Assembly (NCBI GenBank): GCA_043753995.1
Contig: JAYUVP010000249.1
Coordinates: 39,684 to 103,683 of the forward strand
DNA from: Fibrobacterota bacterium
Lineage (GTDB): Bacteria > Fibrobacterota > Fibrobacteria > UBA11236
Reading direction: 5' to 3'
DNA length: 64,000 bases
A program made the position numbers and the translations under genes. Positions 58,101-63,994 of this stretch are shown in pieces; position 1 is the first letter of the stretch, and each line of letters opens with the position of its first letter. A model generated the notes under the pieces. It worked only from the letters and a program-made list of their open reading frames with translations. It had not been told where the DNA came from and ran no database searches.

Positions 58101-59260
58101 CGGTCAATATCCGGGACTATGATGTCCAAGGTGGAAAGAATGGTGACGAGATCGGCGATCTTGCCGCCCGCCGCCATTTCATTGATGCCGGAGAGATTGG
58201 AGAAATTGGGCGAGCGTGACTTGATGCGATAAGGCTTGACGCTATTGTCCGAAACCATATAGGTGCCCTGCATGCCACGGGCCGTTTCCACGGAAGAGAA
58301 ATAGGATCCTGCAGGGACTTTGTAGAGCGGCTTTTCCTTGGAGCGATAGGGGCCTTCGGGAAAGGTGTCGGCGGCTTGTTCCAAGATGCGTATAGACTGG
58401 CGCATTTCTTCCATGCGCACCATATAACGGTCATAACAATCGCCATTCCCGCCGAGAGGAATGTCGAATTGAAAGCGCTCGTAAATGGAATAGGGCTGAT
58501 TCTTACGCACGTCGAAATTCACCCCCGAGGCCCGGCCCACGGGGCCAGTGCAGCCATAGCTCAAGGCTTTCTCTTTGGAGAGGCATCCCACCAGGCGGGT
58601 GCGTTCCCGGATAATGGGATTGTGCGAAAGCAAGGTGTCGAATTCATGAAGGGAAAACTTCATGGCCTCGATGATATCCCTAACCTTGGGAAGGAAGTCG
58701 GCGGGCACGTCGGCATTGGAGCCGCCCGGGCGAAAGAAATTCATGGTCAGCCGCGCACCGCAAATTTCCTCGAAGAGAGCGGTGATTTTTTCGCGTTCTT
58801 TAAAGCCATAAAGAAAAGCCGTCACGGCTCCAAGATCCATGCCGAAGCAACCCCACCAAAGCAAATGGCTTTGAATGCGTTGCAGCTCCGAAATCATGAC
58901 GCGTATATATTCGCCACGTTCCGGAACCCCGATATTCATGGCTTTCTCGATGGCCAGACATACACCGAGATTATTGATGTGGCTGGAGAGATAATCCATC
59001 CGGTCCGTCAGGTGGATGTATTGGAGGAAGGTCTCGTTCTCGCCCATCTTCTCGATGCCGCGATGAATGAATCCCAAGTGGGGTACCACCTGGATGACGG
59101 TCTCACCGTCGAGACGTACCACCAGCTTGAGTACGCCATGGGTGCTGGGATGCTGCGGTCCCATATTGAGGAAGAATTCCTGGGACCCATCGGTGAGCGT
59201 TTGCCTAAGCGAGAATCCCGGTGGCAGCGGGGCATTTCCGAGGCTTGGTACGGAGCTCAA
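58097..59260 (-). CDS. nuoD: NADH-quinone oxidoreductase subunit D
   Basis: [20 protein letters not shown]; ...[11 protein letters not shown]...; 387 aa 49-kDa subunit. Confidence 0.9.
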
Positions 59261-60609
59261 TAGGGCCTCTTGACCACGCGGGTCGGATCTTCGAAGTCCT
59301 TGCGAAGCGGATGGCCGGGAAAATCGTCTTCTAGGAAAAGCCTCCGCAAATCCGGATGCCCGGCGAATCGGATTCCGAAGAAGTCATAGACTTCGCGCTC
59401 ATGCCAATCCGCGCCAGCGAATAGACTCGAAAGAGAATCGATTTCCGGATGTTCTTCGTGAGGTAAGCTGCAACGCACAAAAACCTTGTGCCCTTTATTC
59501 ACTGATAAGAAATGCGCCACTAAATCAAAGTGATCTTTCCAATCCACTGCCGTCACATCGATGAGGAGATCGAGCTCTAAGCGAGGGTCATCCTTGAGGA
59601 ATTGCACCAGAGACTTATAGTCTTCTCGCTTGACCGCGACATCGAGCACAAACTCAACTCCCTGCGCGGCGATCTTTTCTGAGATCGTGAGCGGAGCGGG
59701 CGGAATGGCTGGCGCTTCGGCTTTGGGTTCGACTGGGGCGGTGGAGGAAGCCGTCGGTTCCGCAGGCGCAGCGGCAGGCTTCTGGGCTGCGGCTGCCGGT
59801 GCTACGGCAGGTAAGCCATAGACGGTTGCGGTTGGAAAGGCCTTCTCTATAATAGGCCAGATTTCAGCCGCGGGTAAACCTCGCTCCGGCTTGGGCACAC
59901 GGGCCACTTCATCGAACTTGGGACCCACCACACGCTTAATGGTATAGCCTTTATAATCAGGATTCTCTTTCTTGAAAAGCTCCTGCGCTTCCTTCATCCC
60001 CTCTTGCTTGGCCTTTTCCTTTTCTTCCCAGGCCTTGGCGCAATCCGACCAAGCATCCTTGATGGGGGCCGTATGCAGAGGTCGCGGGACGGCTCCAGCC
60101 TTGCGGCCACTGGCGCGAATAATCTCTTGAAGCTGCATGATTCCGAATAGCAAGGACTCGGGGCGTGGCGGGCATCCGGGTATATAGACGTCGACGGGGA
60201 TGAGCCTGTCCGCGCCTTTGACGACGGAATAACTGTCATAATGAAAGGGACCGCCAGATATGGTGCAAGCACCCATGGCGATCACGAATTTCGGTCCCGG
60301 CATTTGCTCATAGAGAGTAATGAGTCGGGGCCCCATCTTCTCGACTATGGTCCCCGCCAACACAATGAGATCCGCTTGTCGAGGAGTCGCGCGCGCCACT
60401 TCAAGGCCGAAGCGGGCCCAGTCATTGTGCGACGCACCCGCAGCCATCATCTCAATGGCGCAGCAGGAAGTCCCGAAAACAAGCGGCCAAAGGGAATTCG
60501 CGCGGGCCCAGCCCACCACGTAGTCCACGGCATTGAGCATGGTTCCTTGCTGTTCGGCAATACTCGGATAAAGCAGGGGCGTCGGATTGGGTTGCGGGGT
60601 CAATCCCAT
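59257..60609 (-). CDS. Fused NADH-quinone oxidoreductase subunits B and C (NuoB N-terminal, Pro/Ala-rich linker, NuoC C-terminal)
   Basis: NuoB part: [29 protein letters not shown]...[12 protein letters not shown]...IPGCPPRPE (N2 cluster cysteines). The linker is about 110 aa, rich in K/E/A/P. NuoC part: [40 protein letters not shown]...[23 protein letters not shown]. Confidence 0.8.
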
Positions 60610-60992: not shown

Positions 60993-61216
60993 CCAATCTG
61001 GTGATTCATTGGAGCAAATCTTATGCCTTTTTCAGCGACAGAAACAATACATCCTTCACGCGGTTGAATCGACACAAGCAGTCGTGATTTCGCGGAAAGC
61101 TTGTCAGGATGTCTACAACGAGGCGCCAAATTGTCTGGGTTGAGGCGGGGGGCTTGTTAGGTGGGAAGAGCGGCGTGTATACTTGGAGGTAAGAAATTCA
61201 TATTTCGGAGGTCGCC

Positions 61217-61489
61217 ATGTCGCAACTGGAATTCGCCACCATGTCTTCACGGGGCCAAGTGGTCATACCTGGCGATATTCGAAAGCAATTGGGCCTGGAA
61301 GAAGGCACCCGGTTCATGGTATATAGCGATGGCGTGAACCTATTGATGAAGCCTATTGTCCCTCCCAGCATCGAGGCATTTGAGAAAATGGTTCGCGCCA
61401 GCCAAAAGCACGCCAAGGAAGCGGGATTGAAAAAAAGTGACGTAGCCAAAGCCATCAAGGAAGTGCGCAAGCGTGCTCGTAGTGCTTGA
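61217..61489 (+). CDS. AbrB/MazE/SpoVT-family antitoxin-like DNA-binding protein
   Basis: SSRGQVVIPGDIRKQLGLEEGTRFMVYSDGVNLLMKP is a SpoVT/AbrB swapped-hairpin motif. Its 3' end overlaps by 8 nt the start of a decayed PIN-toxin reading frame. Confidence 0.6.
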   Translation: MSQLEFATMSSRGQVVIPGDIRKQLGLEEGTRFMVYSDGVNLLMKPIVPPSIEAFEKMVRASQKHAKEAGLKKSDVAKAIKEVRKRARSA

Positions 61490-61703
61490 TACCAATGGGG
61501 TTGCCTCCGGGTTTTTATTAGGCGGCCACCCTTTGTCGCGATCCAGATGATGATAAATTTTAAGCTGTGCTGTTTCGACGAATGCCGCTTGGATTGTGTC
61601 GGGCGACAAAGACCTTTTGACCCTGAATGAAGTCGAGTGAATTCCCATCGTTAAGCCTGTGGACTTTATTAAAGCGAACTCAGCCTTGTTTGAGGCTAAG
61701 TAA
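61482..61703 (+). pseudogene. Frameshifted remnant of a PIN-domain (VapC-like) toxin gene
   Basis: Three consecutive frame segments together resemble a small PIN protein: VLDTNGVASGFLLGGHP... (canonical PIN N-terminus with catalytic Asp), then VSGDKDLLTLNEVE* in a second frame, then IPIVKPVDFIKANSALFEAK* in a third. Confidence 0.45.
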
Positions 61704-62471
61704 TCTGGAATGGCTTACCTGTGAGGTTAGCCTCAAACTCTTGGATGTAACGCACTTGCTCTTGGGATAGAAAGGCGGGATCGCTCATCAGCCCAATTTG
61801 TCAAGGCTTTTGCGATGGCGCTTGGAAATGTCGGCATAAACATCTTTGATTTTGTTTTACTTTCGTCATTAAAACGAGTCCACCGGTCCTTCTGTAATCT
61901 CTGAGAATTGTTTAAGAGCGATAATGCTGAGGTCGTTATCAAAATCGTCGACCATCATTCTAATCATTTGCCGATTCAGTGGACTTGAGGTTCGTGGATC
62001 GACCTACAAAGAGGAATACCTGACATTGCGGGGGGATTGGAGGCCTTAATCCTCTCGGAGGATAAACCCACGATCCCCACATTAGCAAAAAGGGCGAATT
62101 TGGCCTGAGAATCCCCATTCCTCGCCCAAGGTCACTCTACCGCTGCCACTGCCTTGGCTACGCCCAAGGTTCTCGAACTGCAATGAATGGCGGTTTCTAC
62201 GGAATAGGCACTGGGTATCGCCAAGTGGGAAATTGCGCATTGTCTGCCTCTGCATGGTTTGCAACCCGCATCCACCACAATGGTTTACAATCCCACGGCC
62301 TTGGTTTCCTTGTCAGAGGCTTTGGCGGATGAGGGTGTTAGGGGGAAGGGAAGGAATGCCTGAAAGACTCTACATCGGCATAGATGGGACCCATAATTAT
62401 TTGATCAAAGCTCCCCGTGCTCTAAAGGAGCCGGGCTACTTTAAGCATTCCCAGGCCAATTTTGCCAGGTT

Positions 62472-62783
62472 TTATTGGAATGTTTTCTCGTCCACCTTCT
62501 CACCTTCGATATTCCAATAGATCCAGATGCCACTCTGCGACCCATTTGTATACTGGCCTAGTGTTGTCTTTCGGTAAGATTCAACGCCCCCAAGATTCAC
62601 TGCAGGTTGGCTCCAAACCTCAAATGGACCGTGCAATTTAGCATTTGCGTTAAGACACGCTTTCATCCATTGGGCTTCATCTTTTCGCTCAAGAAAGGTG
62701 GTTCCCGTAGGACACCCGAAATCAGCTAGGCAGGGCAGGGTGCAGGCGAGAATACTAATCAGGAACAGGGGTGAACGAAGCAT
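62472..62783 (-). CDS. Hypothetical small secreted/lipoprotein (possible MORN-like repeat fragment)
   Basis: MLRSPLFLISILACTLPC signal/lipobox-like start. GQYTNGSQSGIWIYWNIEGEKVDEKTF resembles a MORN/YwqK-type repeat. Lower-GC region. Confidence 0.35.
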   Translation of the reverse strand: MLRSPLFLISILACTLPCLADFGCPTGTTFLERKDEAQWMKACLNANAKLHGPFEVWSQPAVNLGGVESYRKTTLGQYTNGSQSGIWIYWNIEGEKVDEKTFQ

Positions 62784-62800
62784 AGTGGGACCTCCTTCAA

Positions 62801-63994
62801 TCATTGAACGAATCGCAGGTTGTCGAACAGGAGAGGCGGCGCTCCGGCATTGACGTTGATATTGAATTGGAGGGAGAAATCACTGTAATCCCCCCGCAAC
62901 GCCGCAAGTACATCCTCGGGAACCGTAAAGGAAATCGTGGAAAACCGTTGCTGAGGCAAAGGCGTTAGCTCTACGTGGCCAAGATATGCGTTGTGGATAT
63001 TCGCCGAAGGACAGCTCGCCAACAGGTCAACCGACCCTAACCACCACGGATTCGGCTGGCTTCCCGGAAGAAAAACGTCTAGCGCAAGGGTCGCAAGCTC
63101 CCCGGTAATCCCCGCAGTAGCGATGGGCACGCTCTGAAGAGTAAACCAACCCGCTCCTGCAATGCTTAAGGATGCCTTCCCCTCGCTGTATGCAACAGTG
63201 TCCAGAGAAATTAAGGCTTGCGGAGCTGACCAATCAGCGACGCGTCCAAATCCAAGCACTGGATGCCGGTTCGCAGGTGGTTGGGGAGCGGTCGGTAAGT
63301 CGTTTACAACAGGCCAGTCCCCGTATAGAATGCGACCATCTGAGCCTAGAATTGTGATATTTCTGGTGACGTTGTAAACTTCTGAAATACCCTGCCATGA
63401 AAAGTCGTTGCTTTTCTTCCATTTGCCCGGCCAATAGTTCTGGAAATGAATGCCGAATTGGAACCCTGGATCCGATGTGGATTGCCCTGGATTAAGCTGG
63501 AAGGACGTAGGATAGGTGAAATCGGCGAAAACCAGGTTCGGATTCCTAGGATGGTATCCAACGGAAGCGCTTATTGACGAAGGTTCGGTATAGTAGCGGT
63601 CTACCACGATACTTTGGGAAGGCATCTCTCCCCTATCCATCCACATCCGTACGGTGAATCCTTGGAGTTGGCCTTGGGATTGATTTGTTACGATAAGGGT
63701 GGGTTTGGAAATGTCTGGTTCTGAAATTCCGGTTTCTTTCATTTGCACCGAGTAGGGCTGTTGTTGGCCGGGTTTGGAAAGCACCATATCCTTGACGAAT
63801 ACATCCACCGGATGGGTCACGTCGTCAACCATGTATGACTTGACGGTCATCCTGTACAGTCTGTTTTCCGGTAATTGGATGCCACTGTACACGCCAGTAT
63901 TTCCCTCCATTGCGAATGCGGCGTAACCCTTGCCGCCTCCGAAGATGGGAAGATCAGTAGGATTCTTAATCCAAACCACGGTCGGGTCTGCCAT
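62801..63994 (-). CDS. Hypothetical protein, probably secreted and beta-rich, possibly carbohydrate-binding; may extend 5' beyond the window
   Basis: 397-aa ORF with the first in-window Met 6 nt from the window edge, so it may be N-terminally truncated here. Rich in W/Y/N/G/T/S. No catalytic motif recognised. Confidence 0.4.
   Translation of the reverse strand: MADPTVVWIKNPTDLPIFGGGKGYAAFAMEGNTGVYSGIQLPENRLYRMTVKSYMVDDVTHPVDVFVKDMVLSKPGQQQPYSVQMKETGISEPDISKPTLIVTNQSQGQLQGFTVRMWMDRGEMPSQSIVVDRYYTEPSSISASVGYHPRNPNLVFADFTYPTSFQLNPGQSTSDPGFQFGIHFQNYWPGKWKKSNDFSWQGISEVYNVTRNITILGSDGRILYGDWPVVNDLPTAPQPPANRHPVLGFGRVADWSAPQALISLDTVAYSEGKASLSIAGAGWFTLQSVPIATAGITGELATLALDVFLPGSQPNPWWLGSVDLLASCPSANIHNAYLGHVELTPLPQQRFSTISFTVPEDVLAALRGDYSDFSLQFNINVNAGAPPLLFDNLRFVQ

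What the first reader, a model, noticed from the sequence alone, without database searches (positions are those of the whole stretch)
61217..61703. Decayed type II toxin-antitoxin locus: intact AbrB/MazE-family antitoxin followed by a twice-frameshifted PIN (VapC-like) toxin
**Seen in sequence.**
- The antitoxin ORF overlaps by 8 nt a reading frame beginning VLDTNGV (a PIN N-terminus with the catalytic Asp). That frame stops after 22 codons.
- Two further frames downstream encode VSGDKDLLTLNEVE and IPIVKPVDFIKANSALFEAK, which resemble the middle and C-terminal pieces of a small PIN toxin.

**Inference.**
- Loss of the toxin with retention of the antitoxin is a common decay path.
- The locus marks the start of a lower-GC, gene-fragment-rich stretch (61.5-62.5 kb) just downstream of the nuo operon, suggesting an old insertion.
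Basis: seen in the sequence. Interest (0 to 1): 0.5.

Follow-up and report, generated by a model that had tools for sequence, protein, structure and literature searches.

The report
Decayed toxin-antitoxin pair beside nuoA
This is an ordinary eroding toxin-antitoxin cassette: the antitoxin gene is intact, the PIN-type toxin gene has lost 61 codons and picked up two more lesions, and a second, fully eroded Doc-type cassette lies next to it.

Summary
The finding is real and its interpretation is essentially right, but the lesions were misread.

- **Antitoxin.** ORF 61217-61489 encodes an intact 90-aa AbrB/MazE-type antitoxin, with dN/dS of 0.03-0.07 against relatives.
- **Toxin.** 61473-61703 is the remnant of a PIN_3/TIGR00305 toxin. 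A relative, L003, has a 93%-identical antitoxin and an intact 137-aa toxin. Against L003 the window shows:
  - a 182-nt deletion (junction 61531|61532) that removes codons 21-81, including the family-invariant Glu43;
  - a 1-nt loss in the T-run 61558-61561;
  - an in-frame TGA (61638-61640) where relatives have Gly.
The two downstream pieces lie in one frame, the same frame as the N-terminal piece. Correcting single-base errors could not restore vapC.
- **Second cassette.** On the minus strand at 61699-61967 lies a MazE-like antitoxin remnant plus the first ~30 codons of a Doc toxin.
- **Acquisition.** Both cassettes have lower GC than the window. Cassette 1 sits in a different context in every relative.
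- **Recurrence.** In 11 of 66 surveyed family loci an intact antitoxin sits next to a broken or absent toxin. This matches the documented toxin-first decay path.

The finding is ordinary and of low interest. One small oddity: independent toxin lesions cluster at codons ~15-22.

The parts
61154..61183 (+). Promoter-like site of cassette 1 (TTGTTA, 18-nt spacer, TATACT).
   Evidence: Consensus scan. The -10 hexamer and surrounding bases are invariant in relatives L001-L003. Function is inferred, not shown.
61193..61206 (.). Short inverted repeat GAAAT-TCAT-ATTTC between the -10 hexamer and the SD (GGAGG 61207-61211). Candidate operator for the AbrB-type antitoxin.
   Evidence: Read directly from the sequence. 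The region is conserved in alignment A1. The operator role is inference only.
61217..61489 (+). Intact antitoxin gene (90 aa, AbrB/MazE/SpoVT-type).
   Evidence: ORF. PF04014 at 8.6e-7 and TIGR01439 at 2e-9. 84-94% identical to P0001-P0004. dN/dS of 0.03-0.07 at dS 0.64-1.05 against L001, L003 and L004.
61473..61531 (+). Toxin remnant, piece 1: codons 1-20 (VLVVLDTNGVASGFLLGGHP). It keeps the catalytic Asp6 and carries V9G (GGG 61497-61499).
   Evidence: As it stands the frame runs on to a stop at 61548-61550.
61531..61532 (+). Junction of the 182-nt internal deletion. It removes toxin codons 21-81, including the family-invariant Glu43.
   Evidence: Alignment with intact L003 and L167. blastn shows window 61150-61531 matching L003 1264-1644, and 61531-61690 matching L003 1826-1986. 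Invariant residues.
61531..61561 (+). Toxin remnant, piece 2: LCRDPDDDKF (the Asp84/Asp87 motif), now in the +1 frame relative to piece 1.
   Evidence: tblastn matches residues 79-90. Also.
61558..61561 (+). T-run with a 1-nt deletion (T4 here; T5 in L003, L001 and L167). It returns the reading to the original frame, since 182+1=183.
61562..61703 (+). Toxin remnant, piece 3: codons 91-137 (LSCAVSTNAAWIVSGDKDLLTLNEVE*IPIVKPVDFIKANSALFEAK*). An in-frame TGA at 61638-61640 stands where relatives have Gly (GGG/GGC/GGT). The natural stop is at 61701-61703.
   Evidence: PIN_3 profile positions 86-115 matched.
61699..61788 (-). Cassette 2 toxin remnant: the first ~26-30 codons of a Doc/Fic (death-on-curing) toxin (MSDPAFLSQEQVRYIQEFEANLTGKPFQIT*). 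The remaining ~100 codons are absent from the window.
   Evidence: tblastn with the L165 Doc protein: residues 1-26, 58% identity, E 1.2e-5. L165 Doc matches TIGR01550 at 4.6e-16 and PF02661 at 5.6e-10. Alignment A3.
61791..61967 (-). Cassette 2 antitoxin remnant (MazE/doc-partner type). The C-terminal 20 aa (61791-61850) are 100% identical to P0044. Three in-frame stops lie at 61857-61871. The N-terminal half is degenerate and its homology is uncertain.
   Evidence: P0044 matches PF04014 at 1.5e-5 and TIGR02609 doc_partner at 3.5e-7, the latter below its cut-off. P0044 is followed by a Fic gene in L165 and L166.
61688..61738 (.). Perfect 12-nt inverted repeat (61688-61699 / 61727-61738) spanning the meeting point of the two toxin remnants.
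   Evidence: The fold is not better than shuffles (z = -1.2). Significance unknown.

Best explanation
The stretch 61150-61967 is a small islet of two convergent, horizontally acquired type II toxin-antitoxin cassettes at different stages of erosion. It lies upstream of, and divergent from, nuoA.

**Cassette 1 (+ strand)** is a VapBC-like pair: an AbrB/MazE-type antitoxin and a PIN_3/TIGR00305 toxin.
- The toxin gene is dead. A 182-nt deletion removed codons 21-81, including the invariant catalytic Glu43.
- A 1-nt loss in a T-run and a Gly-to-stop change (TGA) then followed. Their order is unknown.
- The antitoxin gene, its SD and its promoter-like site are intact.

**Inferred function of the surviving antitoxin.** It is probably still made. 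By analogy with AbrB-type antitoxins, its N-terminal domain would bind the cassette's own promoter region. Its C-terminal tail stays available to neutralise related PIN_3 toxins. It has no cognate toxin left to control.

**Cassette 2 (- strand)** is a MazE-like antitoxin plus Doc toxin at the later stage. The toxin is truncated to about 30 codons and the antitoxin carries internal stops.

**Shown:** homology, lesions, an intact relative, and purifying selection on the antitoxin over its history.
**Inferred:** expression, autoregulation, and any present-day role of the orphan antitoxin.
For: - **Family assignment.**
- **Intact relative.** L003 carries a 137-aa toxin next to a 93%-identical antitoxin, and the lesions are mapped base by base.
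- **Catalytic residues.** Family-invariant D6, E43, D84, D87 and D106. E43 lies inside the deletion.
- **Selection on the antitoxin.** dN/dS is 0.03-0.07. Window-specific amino-acid changes number 1 in 90 antitoxin codons against 7 in 77 toxin-remnant codons.
- **Canonical layout.** 55 of 66 family loci have an antitoxin followed by a full-length PIN_3 toxin. The other 11 have an intact antitoxin with a broken or missing toxin.
- **Close relatives also broken.** L001/L002 have an 83-nt deletion, seen in two separate samples. L168 has a frameshift.
- **Second cassette.**
- **Acquisition.** Cassette-limited homology, differing flanks and lower GC.
- **Literature.** Toxin-first, two-step decay is the documented pattern for chromosomal TA systems (PMC13617665; PMC7167474).
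Against: - There is no expression or activity data.
- Continued selection on the antitoxin after toxin loss is not demonstrated. The low dN/dS mostly reflects history before the loss, and the 1-versus-7 contrast rests on small numbers.
- No empty orthologous site was found, so insertion is not proven.
- No other PIN_3 gene lies in the 64-kb window for the antitoxin to act on. The rest of the genome was not available.
- Raw reads could not be inspected.
Confidence: 0.9

Rival explanations
1. Sequencing or assembly artefact: the organism really carries an intact vapC-like toxin, and the breaks are homopolymer or collapse errors.
For: - One lesion sits in a T4/T5 homopolymer.
- Independent short-read contigs from SRR23617192 break at about 61567 and about 61726, i.e. 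inside this region. That could reflect local heterogeneity.
Against: - The main lesion is a 182-nt deletion, not a homopolymer slip. Fixing both single-base lesions still leaves a gene lacking 61 codons and the invariant Glu43.
- The Logan contig runs 78 nt past the antitoxin stop, so it spans the junction. No partial toxin gene was called there, although a 21-aa edge gene was called on the other contig. This is indirect.
- Comparable deletions occur in relatives from two separate samples.
Confidence: 0.03
2. The antitoxin is retained by selection as an anti-addiction antidote or cross-neutraliser of paralogous or incoming PIN_3 toxins, or as a transcription factor. On this reading it is not simply waiting to decay.
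For: - The ORF, SD and promoter-like site are intact, while the adjacent toxin carries three lesions.
- The window lineage has 1 unique amino-acid change in the antitoxin against 7 in the toxin remnant.
- Orphan antitoxins recur in 11 of 66 family loci.
- The anti-addiction idea is established in the literature.
Against: - The numbers are too small for significance.
- The neighbouring cassette 2 shows that antitoxins here do decay.
- No partner toxin lies in the window.
- The toxin remnant itself still shows low overall dN/dS (0.04-0.08). That suggests the loss is recent and the antitoxin may simply not have had time to decay.
Confidence: 0.4
3. The remnant still encodes something functional, for example a 25-aa N-terminal peptide or a truncated PIN domain produced by recoding.
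For: The 182-nt and 1-nt deletions together sum to a multiple of three, so the C-terminal part is back in the original frame.
Against: - Three consecutive stops (TGA TGA TAA, 61548-61556) lie between the pieces, and a further TGA lies at 61638.
- Invariant Glu43 is gone.
- No recoding signal is evident.
Confidence: 0.02

Closest known systems
VapBC-type type II TA systems with an AbrB/SpoVT-fold VapB and a PIN-domain toxin; specifically PIN_3 (PF13470) / TIGR00305 'putative toxin-antitoxin system toxin component, PIN family'
   Same: - Gene order is antitoxin then toxin, with overlapping stop and start.
- The antitoxin has an AbrB-type N-terminal domain.
- Relatives carry a PIN toxin with the conserved acidic residues D6, E43, D84/D87 and D106.
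   Different: - In the window the toxin is a pseudogene: a 182-nt deletion, a 1-nt deletion and a nonsense codon.
- PIN_3 is a separate Pfam family from canonical VapC (PF01850, matched only weakly by L003 at 7.7e-6).
- No member close in sequence has a solved structure.
- No activity has been shown for this subfamily here.
Chromosomal TA erosion by the toxin-first, two-step path (ccdO157 decay in E. coli, Mine et al. 2009, as cited in PMC7167474; Photorhabdus survey, PMC13617665)
   Same: - Toxin inactivated by truncation or deletion while the antitoxin stays intact (cassette 1).
- Later loss of both genes (cassette 2).
- Location in a small TA-only islet of lower GC.
   Different: Nothing of substance. 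This is another instance, in an uncultured lineage.
Doc toxin with an AbrB/MazE-type partner (TIGR01550 DOC_P1 with TIGR02609 doc_partner)
   Same: The cassette 2 remnants match the C-terminus of a MazE-type antidote (P0044, 20/20 aa). They also match the N-terminus of the Fic/Doc toxin that follows P0044 in L165 and L166.
   Different: - Only about 30 of 132 Doc codons remain, and none of the Fic motif region.
- The antitoxin carries three internal stops.
- The remnants alone do not reach any profile threshold.

Membership tests
AbrB/MazE/SpoVT-type antitoxin (PF04014; TIGR01439) | Profile match above the curated cut-off. | tested here: met
   PF04014 scores 29.3 bits against a cut-off of 24.7. 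TIGR01439 scores 37 bits against 28.3.
AbrB/MazE/SpoVT-type antitoxin (PF04014; TIGR01439) | Encoded immediately upstream of, and overlapping, a toxin gene. | tested here: met
   There is a 17-nt overlap with the PIN_3 remnant in the window. Relatives have intact PIN_3 toxins in the same position: L003, and 55 of 66 surveyed loci.
AbrB/MazE/SpoVT-type antitoxin (PF04014; TIGR01439) | Neutralises the toxin and autorepresses the operon. | not testable with these tools
   Needs a kill/rescue assay and a promoter-binding assay.
PIN_3 / TIGR00305 toxin | Profile match above the cut-off. | tested here: met
   The frame-corrected 77-aa remnant scores 39.9 bits on PF13470 (cut-off 27) and 37.7 bits on TIGR00305 (cut-off 29.15). 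Only profile positions ~84-115 of 115 are matched.
PIN_3 / TIGR00305 toxin | A complete domain in one open reading frame. | tested here: not met
   The remnant is three pieces in two frames, with an in-frame stop. Codons 21-81 are deleted. It is a pseudogene of this family, not a functional member.
PIN_3 / TIGR00305 toxin | A full set of conserved acidic active-site residues. | tested here: not met
   D6, E43, D84, D87 and D106 are invariant in 54-55 of 55 family toxins. E43 is deleted. D84 and D87 are out of frame. D106 lies behind stop codons.
Doc/Fic toxin (TIGR01550, PF02661), cassette 2 | Profile match, including the Fic motif region. | tested here: not met
   The 30-aa remnant has no profile hit. 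Homology rests on tblastn to the L165 Doc N-terminus (E 1.2e-5) and on its position after the MazE-type remnant.

The most novel reading that the evidence does not exclude
**Observation.** Independent toxin-killing lesions in this AbrB-PIN_3 cassette family cluster at toxin codons ~15-22. This is the T-run plus G-rich stretch that encodes SGF(L/I)FGGHP.
- The window's 182-nt deletion and the 83-nt deletion in L001/L002 share the same CACCC left edge. The window's antitoxin is nevertheless closer to intact L003/L004.
- L168 has a 1-nt frameshift in the T-run.
- L151 and L153 keep only about 21-22 toxin codons.

**Possible meaning.** This may mark a built-in mutational hotspot, slippage or microhomology deletion, that lets hosts disarm the toxin repeatedly. 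Alternatively it may reflect selection to keep the first ~20 toxin codons for expression or termination of the antitoxin transcript.
Probability: 0.15. Interest if true: 0.35.

Novelty: already known. Interest (0 to 1): 0.15.

Why it matters
It matters little beyond annotation.
- **Annotation.** 61473-61703 should be marked as a PIN_3 pseudogene, not called as small ORFs. 61699-61967 should be marked as remnants of a MazE-like/Doc cassette.
- **Example value.** The locus shows both stages of the documented toxin-first erosion path side by side in an uncultured bacterium. In this sample of the cassette family, about one locus in six has an intact antitoxin with a broken or absent toxin.
- **Only mildly interesting lead.** The apparent clustering of independent toxin lesions at one short T-rich/G-rich stretch.

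Tried and rejected
- **Synteny test for insertion.** A genome-contig scan with the NuoB-C fusion protein found no close relative (identities of best segments 34-74%; most full-length matches under 65%). No orthologous empty site could be examined.
- **Independent assemblies.** Logan contigs from SRR23617192 carry the identical antitoxin, NuoA and the 110-aa protein, but their DNA was not retrievable. The lesions could therefore not be checked in a second assembly.
- **Profile scans of other fragments.** Pfam and NCBIfam scans of stop-to-stop fragments in 61.7-62.5 kb, and of the 110-aa and 397-aa neighbours, gave no hits even at E <= 10. The cassette 2 remnants were found only by the large protein search.
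- **ORF 62332-62520 (63 aa).** I suspected a DUF2235-like N-terminus ('LYIGIDGT'). It has no homologue other than itself among 5.8 billion proteins, and is probably spurious.
- **61950-62480.** There is no convincing similarity to any fetched locus or to the rest of the window. The only hit was a 37-aa tblastx match to L065 at E 0.008.
- **RNA genes.** No Rfam family and no tRNA/tmRNA lie in or near the region, so there is no tRNA-type integration site.
- **Inverted repeat at 61688-61738.** As a terminator it folds no better than shuffles.
- **Solved structures.** No close structure exists for the toxin. The antitoxin has only weak AbrB matches.
- **Shared ancestral deletion.** I considered whether the window's 182-nt deletion is an extension of an 83-nt deletion shared with L001. 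I rejected this as less parsimonious, because the window's antitoxin is closer to L003/L004 (dS 0.64-0.76) than to L001 (dS 1.05), and L003/L004 lack the deletion.
- **Not used.** Structure prediction and the exhaustive representative search were judged unnecessary.

Full report
**What is in the sequence**

ORF 61217-61489 (+) encodes a 90-aa protein. It matches MazE_antitoxin PF04014 (E 8.6e-7, above the cut-off) and the AbrB looped-hinge-helix domain TIGR01439 (2e-9).

Three-frame translation of 61473-61706 gives the following in frame 1:

VLVVLDTNGVASGFLLGGHPLSRSR***ILSCAVSTNAAWIVSGDKDLLTLNEVE*IPIVKPVDFIKANSALFEAK*

Frame 2 contains LCRDPDDDKF.

- Its two 'further frames' are one frame, the same frame as the N-terminal piece, interrupted by an in-frame TGA at 61638-61640.
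- A frame-corrected concatenation of the pieces hits PIN_3 (PF13470, 8.4e-10) and TIGR00305 (2e-9). Only profile positions ~84-115 of 115 are matched, which is the first sign that the middle of the gene is missing.

**Relatives and exact lesions**

A protein search with the antitoxin found 43 homologues. Four are 84-94% identical, and their contigs were fetched.

- **L003** has a 93%-identical antitoxin followed, with a 17-nt overlap, by an intact 137-aa toxin. That toxin matches TIGR00305 at 3.9e-20 and PIN_3 at 1.2e-22 over the full profile.
- **L167** is intact for at least 111 codons before its contig ends.

DNA alignments, blastn and tblastn place the window's lesions as follows:

1. A 182-nt deletion with its junction between 61531 and 61532. 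It removes codons 21-81.
2. Loss of one T from the T5 run, now T4 at 61558-61561. This returns the reading to the original frame, since 182+1=183.
3. TGA at 61638-61640, where all relatives have a Gly codon.
4. V9G next to the DTN motif.

In an alignment of 55 full-length family toxins, D6, E43, D84, D87 and D106 are invariant or nearly so. In the window:

- E43 is deleted.
- D84 and D87 are out of frame.
- D106 lies behind stop codons.

The gene is dead, and correcting single-base errors could not revive it.

**State of the antitoxin**

- Against L001, L003 and L004 the antitoxin shows dN/dS of 0.03-0.07 at dS 0.64-1.05.
- Its SD (GGAGG 61207-61211) is in place.
- A promoter-like TTGTTA-18-TATACT site lies at 61154-61183. 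Its -10 hexamer is invariant among the relatives aligned.
- A short inverted repeat, GAAAT-N4-ATTTC (61193-61206), lies between them. It is a candidate operator, by inference only.

The toxin remnant also shows low overall dN/dS against relatives (0.04-0.08). Most divergence therefore predates inactivation, and the loss is relatively recent.

Changes unique to the window lineage number 1 amino acid in 90 antitoxin codons and 7 in 77 toxin codons. This is suggestive of continued constraint on the antitoxin only, but the numbers are too small to be significant.

**Family context**

A metagenome scan with an antitoxin alignment returned 80 loci with 40-61% identity. Of these, 66 have at least 400 nt downstream of the antitoxin.

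- 55 carry a full-length PIN_3 toxin directly after the antitoxin.
- 11 have an intact antitoxin ORF with a broken or absent toxin: frameshifted, interrupted, truncated, reduced to 21 codons or fewer, or missing. Single-base lesions in metagenome contigs could be errors. The large truncations cannot.

Among close relatives:

- L001/L002, from two separate samples, carry an 83-nt deletion that separates the N-terminal 20 codons from the rest.
- L168 has a 1-nt frameshift at about codon 15.

Toxin loss with antitoxin retention is thus recurrent in this family. It matches the published toxin-first, two-step decay model (PMC13617665; PMC7167474 citing Mine et al. 2009).

**Surroundings**

Homology to every relative is confined to about 61150-61700, and the flanking genes differ in each case:

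- nuoA in the window;
- a 407-aa ORF in L003;
- a photolyase in L004;
- ParDE and Phd in L001;
- other genes in L167 and L168.

GC content also differs:

| Region | GC |
|---|---|
| Cassette 1 | 0.496 |
| 61699-61967 | 0.428 |
| nuo genes | 0.568 |
| Whole window | 0.555 |

On the minus strand, a search with concatenated fragments found P0044, a 68-aa MazE-type antidote.

- Its last 20 residues are identical to the translation of 61850-61791.
- In L165 and L166, P0044 is followed by a 131-132-aa Fic/Doc toxin. That toxin matches TIGR01550 at 4.6e-16.
- The window's 61788-61711 encodes the first 26 residues of such a toxin (58% identity, E 1.2e-5). The ORF ends at 61699, right where it meets the PIN stop codon.
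- The rest of Doc is nowhere in the window.
- The antitoxin remnant has three in-frame stops at 61857-61871 and a degenerate N-terminal half.

It is a second, fully eroded TA cassette, convergent with the first.

Beyond 61968, nothing recognisable was found up to the 110-aa gene at 62472.

The nuo operon runs on the minus strand with nuoA first. The islet therefore lies upstream of the nuo promoter side, not downstream of the operon.

**Artefact check**

Raw reads were not available.

- Independent short-read contigs from SRR23617192 carry the identical antitoxin next to nuoA. One of them runs 78 nt past the antitoxin stop, so it spans the deletion junction, and no partial toxin gene was called there.
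- Another contig ends at about 61726 with the Doc-remnant ORF called at its edge.

This is indirect support for the sequence as given. The 182-nt deletion is in any case not a homopolymer-type error.

**Mechanism and verdict**

- **Best explanation (confidence 0.9).** This is a horizontally acquired AbrB-PIN_3 (VapBC-like) cassette in the first stage of erosion, with the toxin deleted or disrupted and the antitoxin, promoter and SD intact. Beside it lies a MazE-like/Doc cassette in the last stage.
- **Role of the orphan antitoxin.** It may be kept by selection (anti-addiction, cross-neutralisation or regulation), or it may simply not have decayed yet. This question is open; I put selection at about 0.4.
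- **Novelty.** This is a known kind of thing in known families, so interest is low.
- **Observation worth a second look.** Independent lesions cluster at toxin codons ~15-22:
  - the window's 182-nt deletion and the 83-nt deletion in L001 share the CACCC left edge;
  - the L001 deletion lies between CACCC direct repeats that are visible in the intact L167;
  - L168 has a T-run frameshift;
  - L151 and L153 are truncated at about 21-22 codons.

  This hints at a slippage or microhomology hotspot, but it rests on few cases and was not tested statistically.

Noticed in passing
window 61506-61531; L001:835-855; L168:380-400; L151, L153: Independent toxin-inactivating lesions in this cassette family cluster at toxin codons ~15-22, the T-run plus GGCGGNCACCC stretch. 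The window's 182-nt deletion and the 83-nt deletion in L001/L002 share the same left edge. L168 has a 1-nt frameshift there. L151 and L153 keep only about 21-22 codons. In the intact L167 sequence, CACCC direct repeats flank the segment that L001 has lost.
   Followed up: partly
window 61688-61699 and 61727-61738: A perfect 12-nt inverted repeat (GTTTGAGGCTAA / TTAGCCTCAAAC) joins the 3' end of the PIN remnant (LFEAK*) and the Doc remnant (EFEAN). Neither L003/L001 nor L165 has this exact 12-mer at the corresponding place. It may be a trace of the rearrangement that truncated Doc, a templated quasi-palindrome correction, or chance (about 0.08 expected in 1.6 kb).
   Followed up: partly
window 59257-60609 (-): The nuo operon encodes a single 450-aa NuoB-NuoC fusion (PF01058 + PF00329) with a long Ala/Pro-rich linker, next to a separate 355-aa NuoD. 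The closest genome matches are only about 55-65% identical, mostly Planctomycetota/Phycisphaerae, Acidobacteriota and others. The organism therefore has no close species representative in the genome collection.
   Followed up: partly
window ~61567 and ~61726: Short-read (Logan, SRR23617192) contigs that carry the identical flanking proteins end at these two positions, inside the decayed TA region. This could reflect strain-level variation or repeated k-mers. The DNA was not retrievable.
   Followed up: no
window 62332-62520 (+): A 63-aa ORF is present as a predicted protein in NCBI (P0045, on a 106,114-nt contig). It has no homologue other than itself among 5.8 billion proteins, and it overlaps the 110-aa gene on the opposite strand. 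It is probably a spurious call.
   Followed up: yes
window 62472-62804 (-) and 62801-63994 (-): Two overlapping genes, 110 aa (with a signal-peptide-like N-terminus) and 397 aa, have no Pfam or NCBIfam match at E <= 10. They are uncharacterised proteins next to the TA islet.
   Followed up: partly
L112, L135, L151: Three metagenome loci with nearly identical antitoxins (MSELATTRMSSKGQVVIPDEIRKRLGLKEGSQF...) have each lost the toxin in a different way: replaced by a nucleotidyltransferase gene, truncated at codon ~49, or cut at codon ~22 next to a HicB-like gene. This shows repeated independent toxin loss within one subclade.
   Followed up: no
L001:1259-2425: In L001 the broken AbrB-PIN_3 cassette is followed by ParD/ParE and Phd/YefM-type modules. 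That is a TA cluster, consistent with these cassettes gathering in small TA islets.
   Followed up: no
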